Part shown: positions 4,801 through 21,408 of the stretch, in pieces | Numbering within the stretch: the first letter of the stretch is position 1 | How the letters are laid out: each line of letters opens with the position of its first letter | IMG/VR virus record: IMGVR_UViG_3300038808_000034 | Span: 1-26,274 of that record | Source of the DNA: a virus | Taxonomy: Duplodnaviria; Caudoviricetes | Length of the DNA: 26,274 bases | Strand: one strand, 5' to 3' | The notes under the pieces: generated by a model | What the model was told of the DNA's origin: nothing | The model's input: the letters and a program-made list of their open reading frames with translations, nothing else | Database searches by the model: none | Made by a program: the position numbers and the translations under genes

Positions 4801-7800
4801 GGCTGCAAAGATCGATTCCGCGATCACGGTGCATGCCTCGGAAGAATTCCCCCTGCAGGAGGCAGCCGCCAGCTACTCTGGCATTTCGCACCAGGGCACC
4901 ACCAGAGCGAAGAGCGACCGAGCGGCCTTCGAGACCTTCCTGACCGGCCAGCGCGACGATGGCTTGTCCGTGGCCAAGACCGAAGCCCAGCGGGCGGCCG
5001 TGGAAGCAGAAGTGCAGCAGTTGCGCAAAGAGTATTTGCAGCAGTACCGCATGCTGATGGGCGTGCGCTCCGGCACGTATAGCGGCTTCGTGGCAGGCCG
5101 CAGCGGCCTGAACTCCAAGCAGGCCGGCAAAAGGAACAGCAGCCTGGATCGGGCCATGGAGCGCTTTGCGTCCTGGGAGTCTGGGGCCAATGGCCGCGCA
5201 CGCAGGGCAGCGTTGGCCGCCCGCACTCCCGCTGAAGTGCAGGCTGAACGGAAGGCGGCTGCCGCTGCGCGCCAGGAAAAGGACGCTGCACGGCTTGCGA
5301 AGGACTTGGCGCTGGTGGGCCGGGTTCTCGATTGGAAGAAGGGCGACCGTTCGGAATTTGCCAAAGGCACAACCTTGGTCGGCGTGAACAAGGACCGCGC
5401 GGGATACCCCAACAGCGTGCTGCTGGAGCCCACCGATGGCGCGCCCCTGGTGGACAACAAGTTCGACTTGGCCGGGCTGCTTCGCCGCAAAGGTGAAAGC
5501 GTGCCCGAATCGCGCCAGCGCGTGCGTGAGCTGGTGGACCAGGTGCGTGCCGAGCGTGGACTGAACGGCAGCGAGACTGCTGAAGTCACGCCCAAGCGGC
5601 CTCGCGGGGTCCTGGCAAAGAAAGCCGCAGCCGAAGAGGCCGCCCGCGCCAACTACTTCACCCCTGGCAACATCTTGAAGAGATACGGCGGCGGGTTCGA
5701 TCGCGTCGTCTCCTACACGCCTATCAATGCCGATGGCGCCTGGAGCGTGAACGTTCGGGAGGTGGAGAAGACGGAATCGGGCTGGGACGATGTGCCAGGT
5801 GCGCGCGAGCGTACCCACGCCACACCGCCGGCCGCGAGCGAGTTGAAGGCAGGCCCGGTCGATCGCATCGCGGCAACGGAGCCCGAAGCGGCGCAGGTTG
5901 AAGCCGGCGACGCGGGCCAGGCCTCGGTGGCTGAGCACACGAGCTCGAAGACCCCCACAGTTGATTCGCATGTGGATCTGATGAACCGCGTGCGCAGTGG
6001 GGAGGCCTCCGCCGACGAGTACCGGCAATCGTTCGCGCGCACCGATGCCAGCCAGCAGGCGATGACCGCAGAGCTGAACACCTTGAAGAAGGACAATTTG
6101 CTGCGTTCTGGCGGCTACAACTTCGCACAGCGCTACCGCAACGACAAGAAGGATGTGATTGTTCAGGCCCTGGTGAATCGCATCCTGGACGAGTATTCGC
6201 TGGGCCGCCGCTATGGCTCATCCTCCTATGTAATGAGCACCAGCGGCCTGGTTGCGCACCGTGAGGCCCAGGATGCCGCCCTGCGCGAACTGGTGGCCAA
6301 CACCACCGACGAGGACCTGCAGCAGCATGCGCAGGAGGTGGCTGCCGCGCGCGCCGAGGCTGCGGGCCGCAAGGAGGCGCACGCCCAGACCCTGGCCAAC
6401 CCCCAAACCCTGGCGGACTTCCGCGCCGTGATGCGTCACCACATTGCCAAAGGTGAAAGCCGCGAGGAAGCCTTCTTGCGCCTGACCCCGGAGCAGCGCG
6501 CCAACTTCGACGCGCTGGAGGCCGAAAGCACCCGGGAGACGCGGGAACAGGAGAAAGCCAAGCTGCGCACCAAAGTGGCCGCCGCCGGCCAGTTGACGAC
6601 TGGCGAGGTGGTCGAGACGAAGCACACCAAGCATGGACACGACCTGTTTGTGGTGCAGCTCGCGGAGCGGGTCAGCCGCGAGGACTATGAAACCCTGAAC
6701 GCCAGCGCCAAGCGCATGGGCGGCAGCTACAGCAGCTATCGCGGCAATGGCGCGGTCCCGGGTTTCCAGTTCCGTACCCGCGAGGCCGCCGATGCCTTTG
6801 GCAAGCTGGTGACTGGTGATTCCGCCGACGCCCAGGCCGTGGCCGAGGCGCGGCGCGATGCTTTCGATGACGACCGCAGCCAGTCGGCCGTGGAGCGCCT
6901 GCGGACCATGGCTCATGCTCTGCATGAACGCGCCGACGAGTCGCTGGGGCGTGAGCGCAAGGCCAACACCGACCGCCGCGCTCGCATGGCTGCCAGTGCT
7001 GACGCCTCCGCCCGTGCCGACAAGGCACTGGCGGGCACCATGGAGAACCTGGCCCAGGCCATCGAGGACGGCAAGGCGAAGTTCCTGGATGCCGTCCGCC
7101 AGAAACTGCAGGTGGAGTTCCTGGCCAGCGAGTTACGCAGCGCCAAAGACGCCCAAATACGTGCCAAGTACCGAACCTATGGGGAGCAGGAGCGGCACCG
7201 CGGCGAACCGATGGACGCTGAAACCGTGGATTTTTCCACCTTCCCCACATATACCGCCATGCGTTCGGACCTAGCCTCGCTGGGCCGGCAAATGCTGGAG
7301 GTGGATGGCGCCAAGAAGCTGGGCGCGCGCTTGATGAGCGTGGCCGACGACGTGAGCGAGGCCTACACGGACTGGGCCAAGCAGAACCTGCGGGATGTCT
7401 CCCACTTCGGCATGGATGGAGGCATGGCCGAGTTTGGCAGCCGTGAGGAGGCAGAGCGCGCCATCCGCCGCTCTGGCATCGCGGATCGTGCCATTGTTCT
7501 TCCCATCAAGCGCGGCCAGAACCGTGTGGTCCTTTCGCCCAGCGAGGCCATGAAGCGGGGGCTGTGGAACGGCGATGGCGACAAGCGCATTACGCTGAGC
7601 AGCGAATTCGGCGCGGAACTGGTTGAAGCCGTTGGGCGCCGCGCGGGCGGTGCTATCCGGATGCCTTGGGTTCTGGAAGCGGCCCATGCCAAGCGCAAGC
7701 GCCTGCACGGCATGGGGATTTTTACAGGCAGCGAGTACCGGGCTGCATTGCGCGAATTCGCTGGCATTCAGGAAGCCATCGCCACGCCGAACAAAATCAA

Positions 7801-10800
7801 GGAAATGGAACGCGCGATGGTCGGCCGCCGCGCCGATGGATTGGACTTCTTCCCGACCAGCGCCGAGGTGGTGGATAGCATGCTGTCCGCAGCGGACATA
7901 CAGCCCGGCATGGCGGTGCTGGAGCCGTCGGCAGGCATGGGCCATATTGCCGATGCCATCCGGGAGCATGCTGGCGTCGAGCCCGACGTGGTGGAAATGT
8001 CGGGCGAGCGCCGCGAGCTGCTGGAAGCCAAGGGTTATACCCTAGTGGGCAGCGACTTCACTGCCATGAAGCCTCGCGCAGGCTTCACTTACGGCGATGT
8101 GTTTAGGGATTCGGATGGCACGCTGGGAGTGATGCGCGGTTCGCGCGGCATGGCCAGCGGCCGGGTGGGGTTCCAGCCGCTGGACGAAAACGGCCAGCCG
8201 GATGCGCACATCGCGCGCTGGGTGAACCGCGACGAATTGGTCGGCGTGGAACAGCGAGATAGCGACAGCGGGTACGACCGTATCGTGATGAACCCGCCTT
8301 TCTCCAAGGGCCGGGACATTCAGCATGTGCGCCACGCCTTCGACCTGTTGCGGCCAGGCGGGCGGCTGGTGGCAATCATGGGTGAGGGTGCATTTTTCCA
8401 TTCCAACAAGCAGGCGGAAAGCTTCCGCGAGTGGTTGGAGACCTTGGGCGCCACGAGCGAGAAGCTGCCCGAAGGCTCCTTCATGGACTCGACGCTGCCG
8501 GTGAACACCGGGGTGTCGGCGCGCATGGTGGTGATCGACAAACCGGAAAACTTGCAAGAACCTCAACCTGAGGATGCTGCATTTCGCCGCTGGTTCGGTG
8601 ACAGCAAAGCGGTGGATTCGCAGGGCCGGCCTCTGGTGCTGTACCACGGTACGGATGCTGACATCACGGCCTTCCAGCAGTCGGAAAATGGGGAATCCGG
8701 CGCCGGCATTTATGCCACTGATGACCCTGACCGTGCTTCGGTCTATGCCGGCGATGGCTACGGCCGTGGCGGGAACGTGATGCCCATCTACATGAGCATC
8801 CGCAACCCTGCCACCACCGCCGATGTGGAGGCCGCGCGCAGCACGCCTGCCATCGAGAAGTTGACCGATGTGGCAGAGCGTGGCGCGGCAGTGCAGCAGG
8901 CGCTTATGGCCCAGGGTTTTGATGGTGTCATTGGCGAGAATCCGACCGAGTATGTGGCGTTCCGGCCTGAGCAGGTCAAGAGTGCCATCGGCAACGATGG
9001 GAACTTCGATCCGACCAAGGCTGATATCCGCTTCCGCCGTGCTGAAGCTGAAGGCCAGGGCCTTACCGATGGACAGATGGCCGACTTGCTGCGCATCATG
9101 CGCCCCGCGCCGGCGGCGTTTTCCGACGCGGCGCGCGCCCAGGCTGTGGGCCAGGTGCGCGAGACGGTGGATGCAATCCGCAAGGGCTGGACCAACGGCC
9201 CCGAGGTTGTGGTGGCCTTCGACATGTCCGACCCGGCCGTGCCCGAGGCAGCGCGGCGTGCGGATTTGCGCCAGCGCAGTGGCGGCGCCACGGGCGCGCC
9301 GGAGGGCTTCTACTGGCGTGGCAAGGCATACCTGCTGGCCAGCAAGCTGAACACGCCTGCCGACGCGGCCCGCGTGCTGCACCACGAGGTGCTGGGCCAC
9401 CACGGCCTGCGCGGCATGTTCGGGCCGGAACTGAACAAGATCCTCCAGCAGGTGGCCACCATGCGCCAGGCCGAGGTGGCGGCCAAGATCGCGGAATACG
9501 GCCTGCGCGGCGTCACGGACCTGAGCCGGCGCCACGCGGCCGAGGAAGTGCTGGCAGAGATGGCCGAGAAGACGCCTCAGCTGCATTTCGTCCGCCGCGC
9601 CGTGGCGGCCATCAGGAACTGGCTGCGCGCCAACGTCCCCGGGTTTGCAGGCCTGAAACTCTCTGACGCGGACATCATCCAGGCCTACATCCTGCCGGCG
9701 CGCGGTTTCGTGGAGCGCGGGCAGCGTGCCGCGACCGACCGCATCGAGCCTGTGTTCAGCCGCTCGGACGCGCCGGCCACCACGCCTGATGCGATCATCG
9801 GAAGCACGCTGGGCAGCGCATCGAAGCACCCGGACTACGCGGCAGCCAAGGCCGGGGACATCGAGGCAGCGGTGCGTGTGGCACAGAGCCTGGTGAGCCC
9901 CGAACTGGTGGCCCAGGTGAAAGCCGTCATCGGCAACACCCGCCCACGCATCGTCCCCGTGGTTGCCGAAGAAGCGGCCGGGCGCAACAAGATTCCATTG
10001 ACCGCCGCCGAGGTGCTGGCCGGCCAGCTGGGCCTGGACGTGGCAACGAGCATCGTGCAGGCCAACCGCGCGCACCGCACCGGATTGGACGGACTGGATC
10101 GCATCTTCGCGCCTGTGGATTTCGCTGGTGCTGTCGTGCCTGGTCCCTATCTGCTGCTGGACGACACCCTGACGCAGGGCGGCACGTTCGCGGCGCTCGC
10201 CAGCCATATCCGCGACGGCGGTGGCGAGGTGGTGGGCGTGGTTGCATTGACCGGCAAGCAGTACAGTGCAAAAATCCAGCCCTCTCCCGAAACTCTGACC
10301 TCTCTCCGGCAAAAACATGGTGACCTCGAAGACCAATTCCGTGCCGCAACCGGCTACGGCTTCGACGCGCTCACAGAGTCGGAAGCCCGGTATCTCGCAC
10401 GCTACGAACCGGCTGACCGACTCCGAGATCGAATCGCTGCAGAAGGACGCCGAGCAGGCGAGCGTGCAGATCAAGGCGATCTTGGCCAGGCAGACGCAGA
10501 CGACGCACTGAGCTTCAGCCGCTCCCGGCTGTCGGCCGTCAAGGACAGCGCCCTCGATCAGATCACGCAGACTTTCAGCCACCCTGGCAAGGTGTCGCTG
10601 TGGGACAAGACCGTGGGCACCATGCGCAACCTGGGCGAGCGGGTGCCTCAGTTCAAGCCGGTGTTCGACGCCGCGCAGCGCTTCATCGATGACGTGTCCA
10701 TGCTGGCCAACGACGCGGCCGACTTCGCGCCGCGCCTGATGCCCCGCGTGGAGACCCTGGCCGACCTCAAGAAAAAGCCCATCACGGCCGCAGACAACAA

Positions 10801-13408
10801 GGCTGTGGCGAAACCGCTTTTCGAGGGCACGCTGCTGTGGGCGCGCGACATCGACGGCCAGCCCCTGACCACCGAAGCGCTCAACGCCAAGTACGCCAAG
10901 GCGACGGCGGACGAGAAGGCGCAGATTCTGTTGCGCACCGGCAAGATCCAGGACCAGATGTTGAAGGTGTGGCGCGGCCAGCCGCTGGACCGTTTTGAAA
11001 CCATCATCAACAACAAATTTGAGAGCACGATTCTCAAGCCTGGCGTAGTCTGGAGCGATTCGGAATTGAAATCCATATTCGGGCTGTCCGCTGACCAGGT
11101 GAGCCTGTATCGGGAGGCGCGGTCGGCCATCGACCGAAGCATCGACATGACAGCCCGCACCGACATGCTGCGCATGCTCGGCGAGGACTACGCGCCCATG
11201 CGGGATGCGGTGCTGGACCAGCAGAACCTGCAGGATGCCTTTGACCTGGTGGTGGAGACGTTGCAGGCTGACGCACGCGCCAACCCGGGCATGGCCGACC
11301 GGCTGCTGAGCATCAACAATTCCGTGGTCCAGCGCTTCGAGATGGCCAACGAGCTGACCAGCCATGGCTATGCGCCGTTGTCGCGTTTCGGCACGTACAC
11401 CGTGGACGTGGTGGACCAGGCCGGCGAGCGCCAGTATTTCGGCATGTTCGAGAGCAAGCGCGAGGCCAACCAGATGGCTCTCAAGATGCGGGACGTGTTC
11501 AAGGGTGCGGCCGTGACGCAGGGCACCATGAGCGAGCAGGCATTCAAGCTGTTTCAGGGCATCACCCCGGAAAGCCTGGAGCAGTTCGGCTCCATGCTTG
11601 GGCTCAAGAGCGACGGCAACGAGGCGAAGGACAAGGCATTCCAGGCCTACCTGCAGTTGGCCAAGAACAACCACAGCGCGCTCAAGCGCCTGATTCACCG
11701 CAAGGGCATCGATGGCTACAGCGAAGACGTGGGCCGCGTGCTCGCCAGCTTCGTCTACTCGAATGCCCGTCTGGGCTCCGGTGGGCTGAACGCCGGCACG
11801 ATGGAGAACGCCGTCGAGGCGATCCCCAGGGAAATGGGCGAGCTGCGCGATGTGGCCATGGGCCTGCGCAGCTACATCCAAGACCCGCAGGAAGAAGGGC
11901 AGGCGGTGCGCGGCCTGCTGTTCGCCCAGTACCTGGGAGGCTCGGTGGCTTCTGCCATGGTCAACATGACCCAGCCTTTCCAGATCACCATGCCTTGGCT
12001 GTCTCAGTTTGGCGGCATGCGCAAGGCCGCCAGCCAGATGGCGCGGGCCCTCAAGGACATGGGCACCAAGGGATTCAAGTACGAGCCCGACCTGGCCAAG
12101 GCCCTGCAGGATGCCGTGGACGATGGCACCGTGAGCCCGCAGGAAATCCACCAGTTGATGGCCCAGGCGCGCGGGACCGGATCGCTGCGCACGGGCGACG
12201 GTACCCGCCTGGGCGATGCCCGCGCCACGGCCGCCAACAACTGGGAGCGCGTGAAGGTGGCTTGGGGGCAGCCGTTCGCCCTGGCCGAGCAGTTCAACCG
12301 CCGCAGCACCTTCATCGCCGCGTACCGCACGGCGAAGGAGCAGGGCATGGCGAAGCCGGCCGAGTTCGCGCGCCAGGCTGTGCTCGAAACTCAGTTCCTC
12401 TATAGCAAGGCCAACAAGATGCGCTGGGCGCGCGGCGCGGTGGGCGGCACCCTTATGACGTTCAAGACCTATTCCGTCAGCTACCTGGAGTTGATGCACC
12501 GGATGTGGAACCAGGGCGAGCCGGGCAGCCCAGAGCGTGCGGCCGGCCGCCGCGCGGTGGGCTGGGCTTTGGCCATGCTGCTGCTGATGGCTGGCGCCGG
12601 GGGCCTGCCGTTCATGGAGGATGCCGAGGACCTGATCGACGGCGCCGGCCAGATGATGGGCTACAACGTCAGCGCCAAGCAGTGGCGCAAGGAGTTCCTG
12701 CAGAGCGTTGTCGGCAAGGAGCTGGCCGAGTTCATGGAGCAGGGTATGTCCGGGCTGCCCGGTGCACCTATCGACATCTCTGGCCGCCTGGGGCTGGGCA
12801 ATCTCATCCCCGGTACCGGCCTATTCCTGACAAAGCAGAACCGCGAGCGCGACCTGCTGGAGATCGCGGGGCCTGCCGGCGACCTGGTTGCCCGTGGCTT
12901 CACGGGCGCCCGCAAGGCGCTGACCGGGGACGTGGGCGGCGCAGCGATGGAGTTTTCGCCCACGGCTGTGCGCAATCTGGTGAAGGGGGCGGACATGGCT
13001 GCGACTGGCATGTACCGCGACCAGAAGGGCTACAAAGTGCTGGACACCACGCTCGCGGAAGCTGTGTCCAAGGCCATCGGCTTCCAGCCGAAGTCGGTCT
13101 CTGAGGTGCAGGAGGCCAACAGCTTCATGCTGCGCAGCAAGTCCTTCTACACGCAGACCTCCTCTGAGATCAAAGCCCAATGGGCGCAGGCGCTTTTTGA
13201 GCAGGATGAGGCTGCCCTGCAGCGTGTTCGTGACCGGGTTGCGGCCTGGAACCGCGACAACCCGGAGCAGCCCATCGTGGTCAAGATCCCCGATGTGATG
13301 AAGCGCGTGCGCGAAATGGGCAAGCCGCGCACAGATCGGATTGCCGATACCGCCCCCAAGGCATTGCGGCAACAGATGCGCGAAATGGCCCAAGAGGCGG
13401 GCCGCTGA
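1811..13408 (+). CDS. Giant polyvalent virion-associated protein, 3865 aa
   Basis: iPPase-like GNYRKGH..ISIENP..HYGY..GADKDHVDVF..FDEHK (~4340-4800); N6-MTase DFFPT/VLEPSAGMG/NPPF (~7841-8545); ART-PolyVal-like FRRWFGDSK..YHGT..GIY..GFDG..EYVAF (~8575-9035); zincin HEVLGHHG (~9380); PRTase LLLDDTLTQGGT (~10151); PLSRFG (~11375). Confidence 0.92.
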   Translation: MENPKTDTDWSNFTPADAGGKAVPTAGRATNWNDFKPLEEPPARGLKGWARDIGAGLVDTAIGVPEALVGLADIPTGGRVGKFLENEGGAVGLRFKDAREVTSKLYSDATQEAERMFQAADGLVDKAATAIQNPSVIAKSVGTSLGSMGLGGVAARGLLAAAPRIAPWVAGAAGEGATMAGSQAEQIRQETEDGLLTPSQVAAAVGTGVLGGAFSVAGGKVAQRLGIGDADTMMAQGLKGVDEQIAGKAAQAAANPLVAEAAVKSIPRKVIEGAIAEGFLEELPQSMAEQIFQNVALGKPWHEELDSAAVMGVLSGGTMGAGAAGFKGFRDASSREGDAAAPAPGDAAPAVSSAAPASPNAGLERVSNEFAARLKALQEQEQGEPMVPQAAPPDGAAALARQQAQAQAERDAQIAAGRAAEGPDDEIFQSTGATVQRPSEAMGLRPGPAAGALENAAALAVDTGASAQVQQATMLAQAAEEAKKAKPQQQREQQRTPQAPAVDPDTGEIAGMGMSGWSDADLSTAYRSAQSLEVRRQMAQELSRRRANREEAALQAELQAEQSAPDMPGEPDSGFASVQEDAGPVPERIEIQGAGETSPAAQPVAPGAKAEGANVATVAQLNRKQLADLSTDELHQLAGLLPAEHGRQKKIQKEIQTRADAAQTAINEGAKTNGTETPQAQQGSTQPPQAGTAPAGAVVQQAAGPESARAAPATVAQGLTNGAAPTPNAGAQAGAPVATKAQAQDNGLAQRAQLLAASERWTSMPAAERQTVAKAAKGLNAAARAGAHTRAWADLAPTVREKLAAAMPDAAAAPAAPAAPAAPAVTSAQAQAAPLPAAAAVNAAAQEAATSQANDLPEPTDAQKEAGNYRKGHVRLNGLDISIENPAGSRRRPEWPQLKHHYGYFKGSVGADKDHVDVFMTDRASDPDLPVFVVDQVNRDGSFDEHKVVLGAADEADARSTYLGNYEKGWTGLGAITQMTQEDFKAWVRDPAKTKRPAAKIDSAITVHASEEFPLQEAAASYSGISHQGTTRAKSDRAAFETFLTGQRDDGLSVAKTEAQRAAVEAEVQQLRKEYLQQYRMLMGVRSGTYSGFVAGRSGLNSKQAGKRNSSLDRAMERFASWESGANGRARRAALAARTPAEVQAERKAAAAARQEKDAARLAKDLALVGRVLDWKKGDRSEFAKGTTLVGVNKDRAGYPNSVLLEPTDGAPLVDNKFDLAGLLRRKGESVPESRQRVRELVDQVRAERGLNGSETAEVTPKRPRGVLAKKAAAEEAARANYFTPGNILKRYGGGFDRVVSYTPINADGAWSVNVREVEKTESGWDDVPGARERTHATPPAASELKAGPVDRIAATEPEAAQVEAGDAGQASVAEHTSSKTPTVDSHVDLMNRVRSGEASADEYRQSFARTDASQQAMTAELNTLKKDNLLRSGGYNFAQRYRNDKKDVIVQALVNRILDEYSLGRRYGSSSYVMSTSGLVAHREAQDAALRELVANTTDEDLQQHAQEVAAARAEAAGRKEAHAQTLANPQTLADFRAVMRHHIAKGESREEAFLRLTPEQRANFDALEAESTRETREQEKAKLRTKVAAAGQLTTGEVVETKHTKHGHDLFVVQLAERVSREDYETLNASAKRMGGSYSSYRGNGAVPGFQFRTREAADAFGKLVTGDSADAQAVAEARRDAFDDDRSQSAVERLRTMAHALHERADESLGRERKANTDRRARMAASADASARADKALAGTMENLAQAIEDGKAKFLDAVRQKLQVEFLASELRSAKDAQIRAKYRTYGEQERHRGEPMDAETVDFSTFPTYTAMRSDLASLGRQMLEVDGAKKLGARLMSVADDVSEAYTDWAKQNLRDVSHFGMDGGMAEFGSREEAERAIRRSGIADRAIVLPIKRGQNRVVLSPSEAMKRGLWNGDGDKRITLSSEFGAELVEAVGRRAGGAIRMPWVLEAAHAKRKRLHGMGIFTGSEYRAALREFAGIQEAIATPNKIKEMERAMVGRRADGLDFFPTSAEVVDSMLSAADIQPGMAVLEPSAGMGHIADAIREHAGVEPDVVEMSGERRELLEAKGYTLVGSDFTAMKPRAGFTYGDVFRDSDGTLGVMRGSRGMASGRVGFQPLDENGQPDAHIARWVNRDELVGVEQRDSDSGYDRIVMNPPFSKGRDIQHVRHAFDLLRPGGRLVAIMGEGAFFHSNKQAESFREWLETLGATSEKLPEGSFMDSTLPVNTGVSARMVVIDKPENLQEPQPEDAAFRRWFGDSKAVDSQGRPLVLYHGTDADITAFQQSENGESGAGIYATDDPDRASVYAGDGYGRGGNVMPIYMSIRNPATTADVEAARSTPAIEKLTDVAERGAAVQQALMAQGFDGVIGENPTEYVAFRPEQVKSAIGNDGNFDPTKADIRFRRAEAEGQGLTDGQMADLLRIMRPAPAAFSDAARAQAVGQVRETVDAIRKGWTNGPEVVVAFDMSDPAVPEAARRADLRQRSGGATGAPEGFYWRGKAYLLASKLNTPADAARVLHHEVLGHHGLRGMFGPELNKILQQVATMRQAEVAAKIAEYGLRGVTDLSRRHAAEEVLAEMAEKTPQLHFVRRAVAAIRNWLRANVPGFAGLKLSDADIIQAYILPARGFVERGQRAATDRIEPVFSRSDAPATTPDAIIGSTLGSASKHPDYAAAKAGDIEAAVRVAQSLVSPELVAQVKAVIGNTRPRIVPVVAEEAAGRNKIPLTAAEVLAGQLGLDVATSIVQANRAHRTGLDGLDRIFAPVDFAGAVVPGPYLLLDDTLTQGGTFAALASHIRDGGGEVVGVVALTGKQYSAKIQPSPETLTSLRQKHGDLEDQFRAATGYGFDALTESEARYLARYEPADRLRDRIAAEGRRAGERADQGDLGQADADDALSFSRSRLSAVKDSALDQITQTFSHPGKVSLWDKTVGTMRNLGERVPQFKPVFDAAQRFIDDVSMLANDAADFAPRLMPRVETLADLKKKPITAADNKAVAKPLFEGTLLWARDIDGQPLTTEALNAKYAKATADEKAQILLRTGKIQDQMLKVWRGQPLDRFETIINNKFESTILKPGVVWSDSELKSIFGLSADQVSLYREARSAIDRSIDMTARTDMLRMLGEDYAPMRDAVLDQQNLQDAFDLVVETLQADARANPGMADRLLSINNSVVQRFEMANELTSHGYAPLSRFGTYTVDVVDQAGERQYFGMFESKREANQMALKMRDVFKGAAVTQGTMSEQAFKLFQGITPESLEQFGSMLGLKSDGNEAKDKAFQAYLQLAKNNHSALKRLIHRKGIDGYSEDVGRVLASFVYSNARLGSGGLNAGTMENAVEAIPREMGELRDVAMGLRSYIQDPQEEGQAVRGLLFAQYLGGSVASAMVNMTQPFQITMPWLSQFGGMRKAASQMARALKDMGTKGFKYEPDLAKALQDAVDDGTVSPQEIHQLMAQARGTGSLRTGDGTRLGDARATAANNWERVKVAWGQPFALAEQFNRRSTFIAAYRTAKEQGMAKPAEFARQAVLETQFLYSKANKMRWARGAVGGTLMTFKTYSVSYLELMHRMWNQGEPGSPERAAGRRAVGWALAMLLLMAGAGGLPFMEDAEDLIDGAGQMMGYNVSAKQWRKEFLQSVVGKELAEFMEQGMSGLPGAPIDISGRLGLGNLIPGTGLFLTKQNRERDLLEIAGPAGDLVARGFTGARKALTGDVGGAAMEFSPTAVRNLVKGADMAATGMYRDQKGYKVLDTTLAEAVSKAIGFQPKSVSEVQEANSFMLRSKSFYTQTSSEIKAQWAQALFEQDEAALQRVRDRVAAWNRDNPEQPIVVKIPDVMKRVREMGKPRTDRIADTAPKALRQQMREMAQEAGR
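4242..4277 (+). repeat. In-frame tandem repeat (CTGCAGCAC)x4 encoding an Ala-Ala-Pro linker
   Basis: Four exact 9-bp copies. Confidence 0.9.
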
Positions 13409-13414
13409 CCCGGT

Positions 13415-13450
13415 ATAGGGTTCGACGGTGAGAGGGAGCCCCGGAAAACT
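13415..13450 (+). promoter_or_regulatory. Putative late promoter, copy 2 (ATAGGGTTCGAC-N18-AAAACT), upstream of the lysis cassette
   Basis: Identical 12-mer to 1769..1780. Confidence 0.55.
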
Positions 13451-13512
13451 CCGGGACATGTTTCAAAAACCCCTCCCGCTGGCCACCGTCAGCATCCAAG
13501 TACGGAGCTGAC

Positions 13513-13764
13513 ATGGACCGCGAAACCATTGTGCGAACCGCCCTCGTCGAAGGTGCGAAGGCCGCCCCTCCCGTCACCGTGGTGGCCAACAGTGTGGCCA
13601 ATGGCTGGACCATGACCCACACGGCCACCGCACTCACCATCATCTACGTGCTGCTGCAGGCCGTCTACCTGCTGTGGCGCTGGAGCAATGAGCGCGAGGA
13701 CCGCCGCGCCAAAAAGGCGCGCGATCTCATCGACCAGGCCGAAGCCTGCAAGGTCCTGCCATGA
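13513..13764 (+). CDS. Holin
   Basis: 83 aa; KAAPPV..TM..YVLLQAVYLLWRW then a charged tail; GGAG SD; ATGA overlap with the endolysin. Confidence 0.8.
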   Translation: MDRETIVRTALVEGAKAAPPVTVVANSVANGWTMTHTATALTIIYVLLQAVYLLWRWSNEREDRRAKKARDLIDQAEACKVLP

Positions 13765-14294
13765 GCCAGGTCCGCATGCCCGCTGCGTTGCTGCGCAAGG
13801 GCGCCATCCCCGCCGCCCTTCTGGCAGCCCTGACCAGCCCACTGGCATTCCAGACTCTGGAGCGCTGGGAGGGCAATGTGCTGCAGGTCTATGCTGACCA
13901 TCTGGCTGGCGGCCTGCCCACCTACTGCGCGGGCCGCACGGACCCGAGCGCCGTGGTGGGCACCAAGCTGACCAGCGACCAGTGCCAGGCCATCAACAAG
14001 ACCACGCTCCTCGAATATGGCTATGCCGTGCTGGGCTGCGTGAACTGGGACTACCTGACGGCGCGGCGCTTGATCGGCCTGACGGTGTTCGCCATCAACG
14101 TGGGCAAGGACGGGGCCTGCGGTTCGCAGGCGGTGCGCCAGATCAATGCGGGCAATCTGCGGGCTGGCTGCGACCTGATCGCGCGAACGCCGGATGGGCG
14201 GCCGAACTGGTCCTATGCGGGCGGTGTGTTTGTGCAGGGCCTGCAGAACCGGCGCCAAGCTGAGCGGGCGCTGTGCCTGGAGGCCCAGCCGTGA
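13761..14294 (+). CDS. Endolysin, GH24 lysozyme, probable SAR type
   Basis: Ala/Leu-rich N-terminal segment, then E-x8-D..PT (WEGNVLQVYADHLAGGLPT); C-terminal GLQNRRQAERALC. Confidence 0.92.
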   Translation: MSQVRMPAALLRKGAIPAALLAALTSPLAFQTLERWEGNVLQVYADHLAGGLPTYCAGRTDPSAVVGTKLTSDQCQAINKTTLLEYGYAVLGCVNWDYLTARRLIGLTVFAINVGKDGACGSQAVRQINAGNLRAGCDLIARTPDGRPNWSYAGGVFVQGLQNRRQAERALCLEAQP

Positions 14295-14803
14295 GCATCC
14301 GTGCTGCCACCCACCTGGCCGCCGCCGCCGTGGCCGCCGCGTTGGCATGGCAGTTCCAGGGCGCGCGCCTGGGCGCCGAGCTGGCCGAGGCCCGGCTGGA
14401 AACCACCATGGAGCGGCTGGCCACCAGCACCGCCCAGCGGGCAGCAGATGCCCGCGTGCGCCAGGCCGAGCAGGCCGTGGCCACCACCTACCAAGGAGCC
14501 CTGAACGATGCCCTCAAGAAGCAAACCGCGCTGCAGGCTGCTGCTGCTGGTGCTGGCCGCGAGCGTGACAGCCTGCGCAAGCAACTGTCCGCTGCCGAGC
14601 AGCGACTTGCCGACGCTTCCCCCGACGCCCTCATCGAGTACGCCAGCACCCTCAACGACCTATTCGGACAGTGCAGCAGCAGATACACGGAGCTGGCAGC
14701 AGCGGCTGACGGCCACGCAACTGATGCAGCTACCTGTCGCGCGGCCTGGCCCGTGATTCAAACACCGCGCCTGCCGGCCGCAGGCACCATCCCCAACCCC
14801 TGA
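14291..14803 (+). CDS. i-spanin (Rz-like)
   Basis: GTG start overlapping the endolysin stop; N-terminal TM, coiled coil, C-terminal ADGHATD..AWP. Confidence 0.85.
   Translation: MSIRAATHLAAAAVAAALAWQFQGARLGAELAEARLETTMERLATSTAQRAADARVRQAEQAVATTYQGALNDALKKQTALQAAAAGAGRERDSLRKQLSAAEQRLADASPDALIEYASTLNDLFGQCSSRYTELAAAADGHATDAATCRAAWPVIQTPRLPAAGTIPNP
14508..14756 (+). CDS. o-spanin (Rz1-like lipoprotein) embedded in the +1 frame of Rz
   Basis: AGGAG SD at 14494; basic n-region, LLLLVLAASVTA-C lipobox, Pro-rich mature part. Confidence 0.85.
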   Translation: MPSRSKPRCRLLLLVLAASVTACASNCPLPSSDLPTLPPTPSSSTPAPSTTYSDSAAADTRSWQQRLTATQLMQLPVARPGP

Positions 14804-14804
14804 C

Positions 14805-15203
14805 ATGGCATCCACCACCATCAAGTATTTCGCCCACGCTCACCTGCCTCCCAAGCTGCAGGCAGTGAGCAAGCCCGTGGGCCTGCTGGCCGAGCTGCTG
14901 GAAAAGCAGCTGCCCGATGGCCCCGAGAAAAGCGCCGGCATGCGCAAGCTGCTGGAGGCCAAGGACTGCTTTGTCCGCGTAGCTCTGGATATGCCCGAGC
15001 CGCTGGCCAGCACGCTGGCGCAGAAGAACGTGCTGGACCAGAAGATGGACTGCGACCAGGACATCAGCCGCCTGGACACGTTCATCCGCGAGAACGCCGC
15101 ATTGCCCGCGCTGCCCGCCGACGAGCAGGCCCGCCTGCGCCGACAGCTGGACGTGATGCACGAGCTGTCCACGATCCTGGGCGAGCGCATCGCCAATTTC
15201 TGA
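14805..15203 (+). CDS. Two-domain helical protein: Acb2/Tad1-hairpin-like domain plus crAss001_48-like domain (putative sponge fusion)
   Basis: N-domain YFAHAHLPPKLQ..LPDGPEKSAGMRKLLEAKDCFVR; C-domain ..EQARLRRQLDVMHELSTILGERIANF. The ORF is solid; family names are from recalled motifs. Confidence 0.6.
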   Translation: MASTTIKYFAHAHLPPKLQAVSKPVGLLAELLEKQLPDGPEKSAGMRKLLEAKDCFVRVALDMPEPLASTLAQKNVLDQKMDCDQDISRLDTFIRENAALPALPADEQARLRRQLDVMHELSTILGERIANF

Positions 15204-15248
15204 GCCAGCCGGCCCGCACCGGCCGGCCGCCGGACATCGGAGATACCT

Positions 15249-16100
15249 GTGAAATTCGCTTTCAATACCACCCCCAAGATGATCGCCACAGCCGTCGCGG
15301 TGCTGGGCGCCGTGCTGGCACTGGCCGCCTACAAGGTGGGAGCGTCCCCCAGTGGTGCCGCATTGCCCGTCTTCGTGGGCGTCTGCGCTTTCCTGGTCCT
15401 GCTGTTCTGCGCCACGCAGATTAACCTGGCGTTCCAGGTGCCCAGCCAGCCGGCGCCGCCTGAACCCCGCGAGCGCTCCCACCGTCAGGAGCTTGAGCTG
15501 GCCATGGCGCACGGCATGGGGGCATTGGTAGCCAATCCCGCTTACCCGGGCAAGCCCGTGGGCAACAACATCCGCGATGCGCTGGACGCGATGCTGGCGC
15601 AGTCGGCCCCTTCGTCAGTGGCCGAGCTGCGCTGGGGGATGAATGCTTACCCTGGCCGCGCCGACCAACACAAATGCCTGGTACATAGCGTGGTGGAATG
15701 CCCCTGTCAAAAGGCCAGCGACGATCTGATGCGCAGCGCTGGCTTCGAGGGCGAGCAGGCCCCAACCAGCAGCGGCCCGCGCGTGACGCCGGCGGACGTG
15801 GAAGCCGAGATCGCTCGTGAGCACTATTTCACCGCCGAGCAGGGCGCCAAGCATCCTGACGCAGTCGCAGAGCCCTACGACTTCGGCGATGTCTGGAAGA
15901 GCAGCAACCTGGGCGCCTTGACCTTCTGCGTGCTGGTCCTGAAGAACGGCACCAAGGTCGTGGGGATCAACTATGGCGCCATCGATTCCGCGCAACACAG
16001 TGCGGAGCGCGGCCGTGAAGAAGCACGCGCTCAGGCCGTGGAGAAGATTTGGGAGCTGCTGGGCTTCCGGCTGCGCGACAAGCTGGCAAAGCAGGCCTGA
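15249..16100 (+). CDS. 2-TM protein with C-terminal N4 Gp49/Sf6 gene 66 (Acb4-like) domain
   Basis: GGAG SD plus GTG; two hydrophobic helices; 15774..16100 PRVTPADVEAEI..EHYFTA..LTFCVLVLKNG..KIWELLGFRLRDKL. Confidence 0.8.
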   Translation: MKFAFNTTPKMIATAVAVLGAVLALAAYKVGASPSGAALPVFVGVCAFLVLLFCATQINLAFQVPSQPAPPEPRERSHRQELELAMAHGMGALVANPAYPGKPVGNNIRDALDAMLAQSAPSSVAELRWGMNAYPGRADQHKCLVHSVVECPCQKASDDLMRSAGFEGEQAPTSSGPRVTPADVEAEIAREHYFTAEQGAKHPDAVAEPYDFGDVWKSSNLGALTFCVLVLKNGTKVVGINYGAIDSAQHSAERGREEARAQAVEKIWELLGFRLRDKLAKQA

Positions 16101-16194
16101 CAGGCCGTCATCCATGAAAAGTCAGGGAGATCGAAGATCCTGTCACAGTGCCAATGTCGGCTGGCGTGTAGCGCATACGCATGACACCACGCAT

Positions 16195-16233
16195 AAAAAA
16201 GGAAAAGGCCGGCGATCAGCCGGCCTTTTCGTT
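16195..16233. terminator. Bidirectional intrinsic terminator
   Basis: GAAAAGGCCGGC-GATCA-GCCGGCCTTTTC with a flanking A6 run, between convergent genes. Confidence 0.85.
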
Positions 16234-16241
16234 AAATGCGC

Positions 16242-16406
16242 CTATTCAGACTGCACAGGACTGGGCGCGGAACCACCTACGTCCAGTGATACAGACCCAA
16301 AAACAGCAACAGTCAAGACCGCAGGAAGGAGTAGTTTGTAGGACCACTTTGACTTAATTTCAGCTTGCAACTGAACCTTGCCGTGGAGGTGAGCCTTAGC
16401 GTTCAT
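16242..16406 (-). CDS. Small protein (54 aa) with one hydrophobic segment
   Basis: Very strong SD AAGGAGAAGGAGGT before ATG at 16406; LLLPAVLTVAVFGSVSL; terminator downstream. Confidence 0.55.
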   Translation of the reverse strand: MNAKAHLHGKVQLQAEIKSKWSYKLLLPAVLTVAVFGSVSLDVGGSAPSPVQSE

Positions 16407-16705
16407 GGTGACCTCCTTCTCCTTAATAGTCTTAGTGAAATGCTCGTTGGAATGATCAGGCGGATTCGAACCGCCAAACTCTGACAACTTCGAGTGCGTG
16501 GGTTGGTAGGCCTTGCAGTCTTGGGTGCTGAGAGTCTTTCCCACTCCTATGTAGTCTTTTCTAAGCGCTCAGTGATTGTAGCGCAAGCCATGGATCCGTA
16601 GAAAACGGATGCCTTGCAAAGCGCAAAGGCTTCAAAATGGTGCCGACGAGCGGATCGCTGTCATAGACCAGAAGGCCCAATACACGATTAGGCCGCCTGG
16701 GCCCA

Positions 16706-16813
16706 ATCGAGGTCCTGGCAGAGCGCGGTGCAGATATCACGCGAGCGGCTGATGGTCACGCCGCTGACGCCGCGCTAATGAAGGACGCGTGGCCAATGGT
16801 GAAGCTGTGGTAG
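16706..16813 (+). pseudogene. Remnant of an Rz (i-spanin) C-terminus
   Basis: Translates IEVLAERGADITRAADGHAADAALMKDAWPMVKLW*, matching AAADGHATDAATCRAAWP of the intact Rz; in-frame stop upstream and no start. Confidence 0.75.
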
Positions 16814-16975
16814 TAAAGCGTGTCGACCTGTCCTGATTGCTGACGACGTCGTTCGGTGGCAGCAGGACTGCATGTTTAGAGTTTAATTGATGACGTTTCT
16901 AACGAATAAGAATTTTCTACAAACACAGGGTAATTCTGAGTTATATTCTGGGAGACTACAATCAGAGGTTTAAAT

Positions 16976-17746
16976 TTGAATATCGCGTCTCCTATAGAGT
17001 TCACTCACACTGTTGTGATTAAGTGGGACTGGCCAACTGAATTTGTTCAATTGCATCTTGGCAAAAAGAGGTACAGGAAGGGTGAGTTCATTGAGACGTG
17101 CGAGCGCTGGCCTGATCTTCCCTATGACTTGGTGTACGCGGCGCGCGTTGAAGAGCATAAGATCGCTGATAAACAGCACTACCTGCGATTGATTTATGAG
17201 AGAGAAAATAATGATGACGCTGGAGTAATTAACAAGGCGTGGGGATACTCGGAGTTGAAGATTGACCTTGAGGCGGGAACGGTCATTGCACAATGGATTA
17301 ATGATGCTCCGTATGAGTATTACAGCGGGTTAGGTGAAGCGGCACTGGTTTCTGAAGCGCTACTCGCAGACATTGAATACGAGTGTATCCGAAGGATCAA
17401 ACGCCAGCAAGCGAAGTTTAGAAATCAATTGTTGAAGCGCTATAAGAAATGCGTTCTTACTGGGGAATCTTGCCCGGAACTGCTAGATGCTGCTCATATT
17501 ATTGATATGCAGGATGGTGGTGCTAATGGGATGATGAATGGTATCCTGTTGAGAACCGATCTTCATAGACTCTTCGATCGGCGTCTTTTGATTATTCGGG
17601 AGGACGGATCCGTAAATATATTGCCTCAAGCAAAGGTCTTAGGAGAATATCGAGATTATGTTGAGTCGCTAAATGTTAAGCCAGACGTTCTCAAGGGCAT
17701 AAAATCCAAACTGCATATTCGAAATTCGAAAAAATTTAGTAAATAA
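16976..17746 (+). CDS. HNH endonuclease (HNH_2-type) with uncharacterised beta-rich N-terminal domain
   Basis: QAKFRNQLL..CVLTG..LDAAHI..NGILLRTDLHRLFD; AT-rich; TTG start after GAGG. Confidence 0.85.
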   Translation: MNIASPIEFTHTVVIKWDWPTEFVQLHLGKKRYRKGEFIETCERWPDLPYDLVYAARVEEHKIADKQHYLRLIYERENNDDAGVINKAWGYSELKIDLEAGTVIAQWINDAPYEYYSGLGEAALVSEALLADIEYECIRRIKRQQAKFRNQLLKRYKKCVLTGESCPELLDAAHIIDMQDGGANGMMNGILLRTDLHRLFDRRLLIIREDGSVNILPQAKVLGEYRDYVESLNVKPDVLKGIKSKLHIRNSKKFSK

Positions 17747-17838: not shown

Positions 17839-18123
17839 TTCGCAAAGCGCCGCTGCGCCTTGGTCTTGACCAGCTTTGCACTGTCTCTCATGGCCTGCGC
17901 GAGCAATCCGCAGATGACTCCCGCCGACTTGCCAGCGCTCCCTTCGCCGCCGTCCTTGTGTACGCCACTGCCCTCGGGCTCGTATTTGAAGACTGTCGTG
18001 CAGTATGGAGCCATGGCTGCAAAGTCGGCAGGGCACGCAGCTGATGTCCAGACCTTACCGGACGCTTGGCCCCTGATTAACACCCCAAGCCTACCTGCCA
18101 GAGGCACTCCCTCAAAAGACTGA
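17839..18123 (+). pseudogene. Decayed Rz/Rz1 pair with a frameshift near 18000
   Basis: One frame reads GLREQSADDSRRLASAPFAAVLVYATALGLVFEDC (Rz-like); the +1 frame reads LMAC-ASNPQMTPADLPALPSPP (Rz1-like) and runs into GHAADVQTLPDAWPLINTPSLPA (Rz C-terminus). Confidence 0.8.
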
Positions 18124-18276
18124 TATACCCTCCACCAGCGCCAAGTATTTGGCGCGCGCGTACTTGCTGACCGATTTTTTGGATTAAGTAGTATTTAAAT
18201 TTCGGTGCTTGGTATTTTGGGTAATTTAATTGTGATAGGTGTGCCTGGGTGTGAATTCATAGAAAATATACTATGC

Positions 18277-20709: not shown

Positions 20710-21408
20710 ATCTGTAATCGCTACAACACCCCACGAGAAACCGAGATCGAGCGCATGTGGCGCGTGGGATCGCAGAACCCACCACGCTGGTGGAAGCCGC
20801 ACGTCACGCCGCTGGCCCTAGGGCCATACATCAAGCCAGGCGGCGAGATTGAGGTAGGGCAGTGGGGCATGATCCCGCGCAGCTCGAAGACGCGGCGGCC
20901 CATGACGGCCGATGGCAAGCCGATGAGCACGAACAACGCTCGGCGCGAGACGCTGGTCAAGTCTTGGACGTTCGCACCGGCTTGGCGCGCGGGCCAGCGC
21001 TGCCTGATTCCGGTGGAAAGCTGGGTGGAGCCATACTGGGGTCTCGGGTCGCGCAATGTGTGGTGGTCGTTCCGGCGGGCTGATGGCGAGCCTGCGGCCC
21101 TGGCAGGCCTGTATTCGGAGTGGGTAGATCCGGCGACTAGCGAGGTCGTGCCGAACTACACGATGATCACCCAGCCGGCCGACGGCCACCCGGTACTCTC
21201 GTTGATGCATCGGCCGGGAAAAGAAAAGCGTGCTGTTGTGATGCTGGAGCCCAGCGACTGGGATGCCTGGCTGCACGGCACGGCCGCGCAGGCGGGTGCA
21301 CTGATCAAGCTGCCGCCGCTGGGCGTTCTGAGATCCGGCGCGGAGAAGCAGGAGGAAGAGGCTCTCCTGCCGGCCGAGCAGCTGCAGGCGCTGCGTGCGG
21401 AAATCTGA
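20710..21408 (+). CDS. SRAP (SOS response-associated peptidase, YedK/HMCES family) with ATC in place of ATG
   Basis: GGAGG SD, then ATC-TGT-AAT-CGC-TAC = (M)CNRY in frame with WGMIP, NNARRE, RCLIP, AGLY, MH. Confidence 0.85.
   Translation: MCNRYNTPRETEIERMWRVGSQNPPRWWKPHVTPLALGPYIKPGGEIEVGQWGMIPRSSKTRRPMTADGKPMSTNNARRETLVKSWTFAPAWRAGQRCLIPVESWVEPYWGLGSRNVWWSFRRADGEPAALAGLYSEWVDPATSEVVPNYTMITQPADGHPVLSLMHRPGKEKRAVVMLEPSDWDAWLHGTAAQAGALIKLPPLGVLRSGAEKQEEEALLPAEQLQALRAEI

What the first reader, a model, noticed from the sequence alone, without database searches (positions are those of the whole stretch)
15249..16100. Membrane-anchored Gp49/Acb4-like domain with a rewritten conserved core
Seen: two TM helices, a ~110-aa linker with a C-x7-CPC cluster, then a clear Gp49-family domain. 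The usual GF.V.GESAC.S.ENFD.E.G segment, as recalled, is replaced by GTKVVGINYGAIDSAQHSAERG. Known: Acb4 belongs to this family and is a small soluble cyclic-dinucleotide sponge. Inference: a membrane-tethered sponge that protects against TM effectors and may bind a different, perhaps unknown, signal. Best candidate for a new system here, together with the upstream gene.
Basis: partly seen in the sequence, partly recalled or inferred. Interest (0 to 1): 0.88.

Follow-up and report, generated by a model that had tools for sequence, protein, structure and literature searches.

The report
Membrane-tethered phage immune-signal sponge
This phage gene joins a known type of "sponge" domain (Acb4), which likely still soaks up the bacterium's cyclic-dinucleotide alarm molecules despite a remodelled pocket, to a predicted membrane anchor of unknown role that related phages also carry as a gene of its own.

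Summary
15249-16100 encodes one 283-aa protein: two hydrophobic helices, a helical hairpin, a Cys/His cluster and a PF13876 (Acb4) domain whose model best matches the Acb4 crystal structure. It lies after the lysis genes and a Sequestin gene of a Delftia-like phage.

(1) The rewritten core marks a broad Acb4 subclade that is mostly soluble (95 of 132 sequences lack a hydrophobic N-terminus). One of the eight homologs reported by Chang et al. to bind 3'3'-cGAMP (Variovorax PAMC26660) carries its first half, so a wholly new ligand is not the default. That homolog lacks the near-invariant His250, which leaves room for a changed preference. (2) The anchor is translated and under purifying selection, but is a separate mobile module: it sits on three Acb4 subtypes and, without any Acb4, forms a stand-alone gene family in Comamonas prophages. 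Nothing here links it to transmembrane effectors.

I found no tethered sponge in the papers searched. The scan had noted other Acb4 fusions on other DNA, none with this anchor. Verdict: new variant of a known kind; the anchor-hairpin-Cys module is the most open part.

The parts
15249..16100 (+). 283-aa ORF: 2 TM helices + helical hairpin + Cys/His cluster + Acb4 (PF13876) domain
   Evidence: full-length relatives of 244-283 aa in Delftia and related records
15239..15242 (+). Shine-Dalgarno GGAG, 6 nt before the GTG start
   Evidence: GGAG before the start in 13 of 15 TM-bearing loci; best-scoring in-frame start, tied with Met86 whose AGGAG lies 12 nt away
15282..15338 (+). predicted TM helix 1 (aa 12-30)
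   Evidence: hydropathy 2.05; helix 9-32 in the model
15357..15413 (+). predicted TM helix 2 (aa 37-55)
   Evidence: hydropathy 2.66; helix 38-63 in the model
15471..15602 (+). helical hairpin module (aa 75-118, HRxxLE...LDA), no Pfam or PHROG family, shuffled among sponge fusions
15669..15707 (+). Cys/His cluster H141, C143, H146, C151, C153; possible metal site, optional in relatives
   Evidence: metal binding is inference
15780..16085 (+). Acb4 / Gp49 domain (aa 178-279)
15945..16013 (+). remodelled pocket segment N233-G255 (beta2 end, beta3, beta3-alpha4 loop); N241, Y242, D246, H250 nearly invariant in the subclade
14805..15203 (+). upstream 132-aa gene: N-terminal helical domain (phrog_1761/5120; Acb2/Tad1-hairpin-like as a lead only) fused to Sequestin (PF21825)
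13513..14803 (+). lysis cassette: holin 13513-13764, endolysin 13761-14294, Rz-like spanin ending 14803 with an embedded Rz1-like ORF 14508-14756
   Evidence: the Rz1 reading is from the sequence
16202..16230 (.). 12-bp-stem hairpin with A/T runs on both sides; likely terminator closing the operon
   Evidence: scored on the - strand; 3 sites found against 2.6 expected, so only its position supports it

Best explanation
The gene encodes an Acb4-family domain fused behind a predicted two-helix membrane anchor; it likely forms a tetramer on the cytoplasmic face of the inner membrane and likely still sequesters known cyclic dinucleotides such as 3'3'-cGAMP through a remodelled pocket. It sits in a sponge slot between the spanin gene and the operon's likely terminator, where Comamonadaceae prophages shuffle small modules (Acb4, Sequestin, Tad2 and unnamed ones). 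The anchor, hairpin and Cys cluster form their own unit, which recombination joins to different Acb4 subtypes or leaves alone. Shown: ORF, family, fold, selection on the anchor, modular distribution. Inferred: topology, tetramer, ligand, co-expression with late genes, and that tethering is not needed for binding.
For: Family and fold. Ligand: all eight tested homologs bound 3'3'-cGAMP and none bound c-di-GMP (text). One is Variovorax PAMC26660 (named in Fig S4A), whose Table S3 sequence has NGAKVLGHNYGSID, 10 of 14 identical to the query's NGTKVVGINYGAID by eye. Like the query it lacks SPO1's F48, F62 and I66 (mapping), so those losses do not by themselves abolish binding. The core is under strong purifying selection within the subclade (dN/dS 0.06 and 0.14), and this segment averages net +0.7 against -0.9 in canonical cores, which suits a phosphate-bearing ligand. 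Modularity: the MKFxFNTT-type anchor is on NYG (window), GES (L228, P0025) and, in its MNLSFNTS form, a third Acb4 subtype (L304, L305); 17 of 117 hairpin hits are 143-211-aa TM-hairpin-Cys proteins with no PF13876; the 2-TM state changes 18 times on the domain tree against 39 when shuffled. Context: a spanin lies just upstream in 16 of 17 TM loci and a Sequestin gene directly upstream in 13 (several loci are near-duplicates). Acb4 fusions that keep function are published.
Against: The tested Variovorax protein differs from the query in all 8 residues after the Asp and lacks His250, which 131 of 132 NYG-type sequences keep. It also has an extra N-terminal domain that could be the binder, and I could not see the gel or Fig 5C. 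The query has Glu at the positions of two SPO1 mutants made to weaken binding (T70E, K81E), although Glu at the K81 position also occurs in the tested Variovorax and Parasporobacterium homologs. The anchor is conserved and recurs in several unrelated sequence types, which suggests that membrane location is selected for something. No tetramer or ligand model could be made.
Confidence: 0.55

Rival explanations
1. The His250-type pocket has changed its preference: it binds a different or undescribed signal, or is tuned to avoid decoy dinucleotides of Panoptes/PanDA-type guards that canonical Acb4 triggers.
For: All ten SPO1 contact positions differ in the query. The subclade forms one group (3 changes against 128 shuffled), reached through a graded series GES > NEG/NTG > NHG > NYG, and keeps N, Y, D, H almost invariant. 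Canonical Acb4 triggers Panoptes and PanDA (passages), which gives a selective reason. Subgroups of other sponge families changed ligand, and 19 of 84 tested sponges inhibited none of seven systems (passages; review).
Against: The nearest tested homolog bound cGAMP. A canonical tested binder (Pseudomonas PA15) also differs from SPO1 at 7 of the 10 positions, so contact residues are loose in this family.
Confidence: 0.22
2. One reading: the anchor was selected to place the sponge beside transmembrane effectors (Cap15-type, PycTM, ThsA macro-TM), and protection against them depends on it.
For: Anchor under purifying selection; several unrelated two-helix sequences recur at the N-terminus; Cap15-type effector domains exist in 4 of 77 and SMODS domains in 11 of 77 genomes of the host's genus group.
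Against: The anchor travels with the hairpin and persists with no sponge domain attached. Soluble SPO1 Acb4 already overcomes a CBASS system whose effector is transmembrane. Most Acb4 genes in the same slot are soluble.
Confidence: 0.12
3. The fusion is loose: a soluble Acb4 is made from an internal start (Met86, Met90 or Met161) or released by cleavage in the disordered linker, and the TM part works alone, for example in lysis control or superinfection exclusion.
For: Low-confidence linker 119-175 and pTM 0.37; an AGGAG 12 nt before Met86; frameshift-truncated forms P0024 and P0247; stand-alone TM family next to lysis genes.
Against: No good SD at Met90 or Met161; Met86 is Leu in L005 and L026; length differences between seven aligned loci keep one frame through the fused genes; a search of 30-154-aa proteins with aa 1-125 gave 1 hit among 133 candidates.
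Confidence: 0.07
4. The remodelled domain is no longer a sponge: the invariant N/Y/D/H/E set forms a hydrolytic site for nucleotide signals, or the pocket is closed.
For: Polar invariants N241, D246, H250 and frequent E258 replace hydrophobic contacts.
Against: No catalytic Acb4 appears in the papers read; the related tested homolog gave a binding shift; this is inference from residues only.
Confidence: 0.04

Closest known systems
Acb4 of Bacillus phage SPO1 (PDB 9E4W; PF13876; Chang et al., 10.1101/2024.12.30.630793 / PMC11722364)
   Same: Pfam family, fold (Z 8.2, rmsd 2.7 A over 76 residues), conserved G52, G67-R68 and helix pattern, phage origin, place among anti-defence genes
   Different: 96-aa soluble protein against 283 aa with a predicted anchor; one-residue insertion and all ten listed ligand contacts changed (K36A, F48T, E49K, V56A, Y57I, F62H, N63S, I66R, T70E, K81E by my sequence mapping)
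Variovorax sp. PAMC26660 Acb4 homolog A0A7G8VM63 (one of eight tested in Chang et al.)
   Same: NG-x-K-V-x-G-x-NYG-x-ID core, loss of F48/F62/I66, an extra N-terminal module; reported as binding 3'3'-cGAMP with the other seven
   Different: no His at 250, different second half of the loop, lacks the long insertion after the first strand, no TM helices
Acb4-Tad2 (Pasteurella phage Pm86) and Acb4-Sequestin (Pseudomonas phages YH6, Ab09 gp59) fusions (10.1101/2025.07.12.664507; 10.64898/2026.06.04.730250)
   Same: Acb4 as one module of a multi-domain anti-defence protein in a hotspot with Sequestin and Tad2
   Different: partners there are known soluble sponges; here they are a TM pair, an unnamed hairpin and a Cys/His cluster, with Sequestin on the neighbouring gene
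Delftia sp. CH05 A0A6N8S0S7 and Comamonas aquatica A0AA42L7J6 (rows of Chang et al. Table S3)
   Same: same architecture with hydrophobic N-terminus and NYGAID core, already in the public family list
   Different: listed only; the parts of the text I read mention only 'additional extensions' and do not test these

Membership tests
Acb4 / PF13876 | Pfam match above curated cut-off | tested here: met
   81.2 bits against 27, model 1-82 of 82
Acb4 / PF13876 | dsRBD-like fold matching 9E4W | tested here: met
   top hit Z 8.2, rmsd 2.7, 76 aligned; ranks 1-10 in Foldseek, E 3e-3 to 1.5e-2
Acb4 / PF13876 | SPO1 ligand-contact residues conserved | tested here: not met
   0 of 10 kept by sequence mapping; but tested binders keep few of them too (3 of 10 in PA15, 0 of 10 in the Variovorax protein), so this describes SPO1, not the family
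Acb4 / PF13876 | homotetramer with pockets formed by three protomers | not testable with these tools
Acb4 / PF13876 | binds cyclic dinucleotides and inhibits CBASS | not testable with these tools
   indirect only: a related NYG-type homolog reported to bind
Acb4 / PF13876 | encoded by phage or prophage | tested here: met
   virus record, beside holin, endolysin and spanin
Acb4 / PF13876 | small soluble protein | tested here: not met
   two predicted TM helices under selection; extensions are known in the family, TM ones not described in what I read
Sequestin / PF21825 (upstream gene, C-terminal half) | Pfam match above cut-off | tested here: met
   33.1 bits against 24.8, aa 87-130; PF21825 named Sequestin
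Acb2/Tad1 hairpin / PF24729 (upstream gene, N-terminal half) | profile or structural match to Acb2 or Tad1 | tested here: inconclusive
   language-model neighbours score 0.87-0.88 with PF24729 on 12-51% of members; Pfam E 0.22 in 1 of 5 domains scanned; confident three-helix model, only generic helical matches

The most novel reading that the evidence does not exclude
The two-helix anchor plus hairpin plus Cys cluster is an undescribed membrane-located anti-defence unit in its own right: it stands alone in Comamonas prophages, and its hairpin is welded into Acb4 and Tad2 fusions, the same signature that revealed Sequestin. Here it carries an Acb4 whose His250-type pocket binds a signal not yet described or evades decoy guards.
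Probability: 0.22. Interest if true: 0.8.

Novelty: new variant of a known kind. Interest (0 to 1): 0.48.

Why it matters
The characterised sponge families in the papers read are small oligomers, and none is described there as membrane-bound. A tethered one would show that phages can place signal interception at the membrane, and natural matched sets (same anchor with NYG, GES or no Acb4; same core with or without anchor) make this easy to test. The NYG/His subclade offers a natural series for how a sponge pocket changes specificity under pressure from decoy guards. The stand-alone anchor-hairpin-Cys family is a candidate new anti-defence protein. If the domain simply binds cGAMP and the anchor is dispensable, this is an ordinary product of module shuffling.

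Tried and rejected
Idea that the 30-aa core alone is routinely swapped as a specificity cassette: only one clear pair was found (P0081 against L212, 85% identical outside the core, 36% inside), and with the core included the insertion type is nearly one clade, so whole-domain exchange fits better. Test of coupling between anchor and NYG core by independent pairs: 6 supported pairs, no power. Genome scan with the full protein: 36 pattern hits, none confirmed. Direct phmmer or profile search of the variant domain against PDB sequences did not find 9E4W; a canonical relative did at E 0.019. The hairpin module matched nothing in Pfam, PHROGs or PDB sequences and is not related to the upstream N-domain (hhalign probability 1.5%); it was not folded alone, so its fold is untested. 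ESM Atlas gave no usable hit for aa 1-125. Fold searches for the upstream N-domain gave only generic helical matches. RNA runs: contigs of relatives in three RNA libraries cover parts of 14308-16087, one spanning the Sequestin gene and this gene, but they are contigs of other strains and may be DNA, so no expression claim. No sigma-70 promoter found in 13300-17000; no tRNA. Host effector counts say nothing about the anchor. Our earlier notes held nothing by sequence or place.

Full report
Setting. The window is a 26,274-base virus record. A 3,865-aa polyvalent protein gene (InPase and ART-PolyVal domains) is followed by holin, endolysin and Rz-like spanin genes, a 132-aa gene (14805-15203), the target ORF (15249-16100) and a hairpin at 16202-16230, all on + with gaps of 1 and 45 bases between the last three genes. 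GC falls after 16,100. The closest named proteins are from Delftia.

The ORF. Residues 12-30 and 37-55 are hydrophobic. The N-terminus has two lysines and no acidic residue and the loop is short and uncharged (on the 94% identical P0001), so by the positive-inside rule (my own knowledge) both ends likely face the cytoplasm. Residues 75-118 form a helical hairpin, 141-153 a Cys/His cluster, and 178-279 a PF13876 domain. The model's best match is SPO1 Acb4. The modules have no fixed arrangement in the model (pTM 0.37).

The anchor is translated. GGAG precedes the start in 13 of 15 TM-bearing loci; the exceptions are L026 and L306, whose start looks frameshifted in a C run. Over the first 61 codons the window differs from L001 by 5 synonymous and 0 non-synonymous changes (P 0.002), and from L005 and L228 with dN/dS 0.15 (P about 3e-5). 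Of 11 pairs tested, 8 had P below 0.05 for the TM part and 3 did not (pairs are not independent). No internal start has a well-spaced SD; Met86 scores as well as the true start but at 12 nt spacing, and is Leu in L005 and L026.

The rewritten core is a subclade trait. Of the 120 listed hits (401 in all), 96 had a variant core, 21 the canonical core and 3 were unclassified; a hydrophobic N-terminal segment was found in 33 of 96 and 7 of 21. Pooling all fetched proteins and loci gave 401 distinct domains: 132 NYG (30 with two TM, 7 with one, 95 none), 79 intermediate NxG (1, 1, 77), 177 GxS (9 with two, 168 none) and 13 other (110 of 511 hits were dropped as duplicates or short; at least one row, P0053, is mis-binned; sampling is biased towards the query). 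Cores form a series GES, NEG/NTG-PVS, NHG-PVD, NYG-AID. On a FastTree of 89 columns the insertion type needs 3 changes against 128 for shuffled labels; with the core columns removed (62 columns) 34 against 127. Named carriers of the NYG core include Delftia, Acidovorax, Comamonas, Diaphorobacter, Hydrogenophaga and Aromatoleum, and Table S3 adds Aeromonas, Stenotrophomonas, Pseudoxanthomonas, Rhodoferax and Methylobacillus; 11 of its 1,331 sequences have NYG.

What the pocket change means. Chang et al. list K36, F48, E49, V56, Y57, F62, N63, I66, T70 and K81 as contacts. Mapped through the alignment, the query has A, T, K, A, I, H, S, R, E, E. Two of these, T70E and K81E, are mutants the authors made. 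But the eight homologs tested all bound 3'3'-cGAMP, and one of them, Variovorax PAMC26660 (Fig S4A; Table S3 row 759), has NGAKVLGHNYGSID: 10 of 14 identical to the query and likewise without F48, F62 and I66. The invariant Tyr may replace the lost aromatic contacts (inference). Limits: its next 8 residues share nothing with the query, it lacks His250 (131 of 132 NYG-type sequences), it has an extra N-terminal domain, and the figures were not visible to me. Aromatoleum L023 bridges the two types. So a known dinucleotide is the default and a shifted preference is the main rival. A reason for a shift exists: canonical Acb4 triggers Panoptes, PanDA and Panoptoo guards.

The anchor is its own module. 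Identity to the window changes module by module: L228 is 0.87 in the TM part but 0.30 in the core; L026 is 0.21 in the TM part but 0.91 in the hairpin; L003 is 0.37 in the TM part but 0.91 in the domain's first half. The related MNLSFNTS anchor is joined to a third Acb4 subtype in L304 and L305 and to no Acb4 in L306 and L307, whose genomes gave no PF13876 match. A profile of the hairpin found 117 proteins, 83 with PF13876 and 34 without. Seventeen of the 34 are 143-211-aa proteins with TM part, hairpin and C-x-C-x5-C-x2-C, those with names from Comamonas, using three different TM sequences; two more have TM part and hairpin with another C-terminus; most of the rest are soluble, and many lie on short contigs and may be cut. 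The hairpin also occurs in soluble fusions with an unnamed N-terminal domain and Acb4, or with a Tad2-like domain by motif (L052, L064). One of three Cys/His patterns follows the hairpin in 48 of 61 TM-type proteins examined and none in 13. The 2-TM state changes 18 times on the tree against 39 shuffled. A spanin lies upstream in 16 of 17 TM loci and a Sequestin gene directly upstream in 13, there fused to Tad2, to the window's N-domain or to others.

Upstream gene. Its C-half is PF21825, the Sequestin family. Its N-half is very conserved and common (545 confirmed stretches for the whole protein in viral contigs; alignment) and folds as three helices; an Acb2/Tad1 link is only a lead. It is not a fixed partner of the target: L026 and L027 lack the gene, and L003, L012 and L014 have Sequestin with other partners.

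Mechanism, with status. Late co-transcription with the lysis genes (inferred from spacing), insertion by two helices (predicted), tetramer formation through the Acb4 domain (inferred from family), capture of cyclic dinucleotides (inferred from one related tested homolog), and protection of the phage from CBASS (inferred). The benefit of the tether is unknown; soluble SPO1 Acb4 already defeats a CBASS with a TM effector.

Literature seen. Chang et al. (10.1101/2024.12.30.630793, PMC11722364): abstract, text parts 2-4 of 7, SI legends, text of supplement 1 (the core block of Fig S4A was not extracted), searched rows of Table S3; no figures; journal version not seen. Tal et al. (10.1101/2025.07.12.664507): passages and section 7. 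10.64898/2026.06.04.730250, PMC13640721, 10.64898/2026.08.10.743927, 10.1101/2025.08.24.671296, PMC13728456: passages. PMC13712596: part 1 of 3. No TM-fused Acb4 or tethered sponge appeared in searches; 'transmembrane' occurs 0 times in two of these papers and once, for an effector, in two others. Three papers listed and the one were seen only as listings. bioRxiv supplements were closed and subscription papers are mostly missing, so absence from print is not shown.

Verdict. A real, conserved, membrane-anchored variant of a known sponge family in a known kind of hotspot. The two odd features are independent; one is partly explained by published data, the other is an unstudied module. Interest 0.48.

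Noticed in passing
window 17841-18170 (+): A second, partial spanin copy: 79% identical to the 3' half of the spanin region of L215 and L228, with an Rz1-like ORF at 17860-18123; looks like a remnant of an earlier recombination at the lysis end.
   Followed up: partly
window 14805-14993 (+): N-terminal domain of the upstream gene (YFxxxHLP...GPEKSAGMRKLLEAKDCFVR) is highly conserved and common in viral contigs, alone or fused to Sequestin; a candidate sponge with no Pfam family above cut-off.
   Followed up: partly
L306:1510-2070, L307:1495-2040; P0307, P0314 and 15 others: Stand-alone 2TM-hairpin-Cys gene family of Comamonas prophages, in the same slot after spanin and a Sequestin fusion, with interchangeable TM sequences and no Pfam match.
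   Followed up: partly
L007, L008, L112, L154, L210, L212 (Acb4 gene N-termini); P0088, P0113: An unnamed ~90-aa domain starting PTVGRxVWF is a very frequent N-terminal partner of Acb4 and of the hairpin; no Pfam match.
   Followed up: no
window 1811-13408 (+): 3,865-aa polyvalent protein with InPase, a methyltransferase-like part and ART-PolyVal domains.
   Followed up: no
window 16976-17746 (+) and 20755-21408 (+): Low-GC HNH_2 endonuclease gene right after the terminator, and an SRAP gene further on.
   Followed up: no
L104:3974-4372 (Pseudomonas phage Bise, OR683401.1): Best match of the domain among deposited phages (56%) lies among head and tail genes of a Mu-like layout; a weaker match in vB_PaeS-D14C is annotated 'Anti-CRISPR protein'.
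   Followed up: no
L306:1495-1512: A C run two bases longer than in relatives appears to shift the start of the stand-alone TM gene out of frame; could be a sequencing error or decay.
   Followed up: no
P0008, P0010: Near-identical proteins are labelled Acinetobacter pragensis and Fusarium proliferatum, probably contamination or mis-binning of Delftia-type prophage DNA.
   Followed up: no
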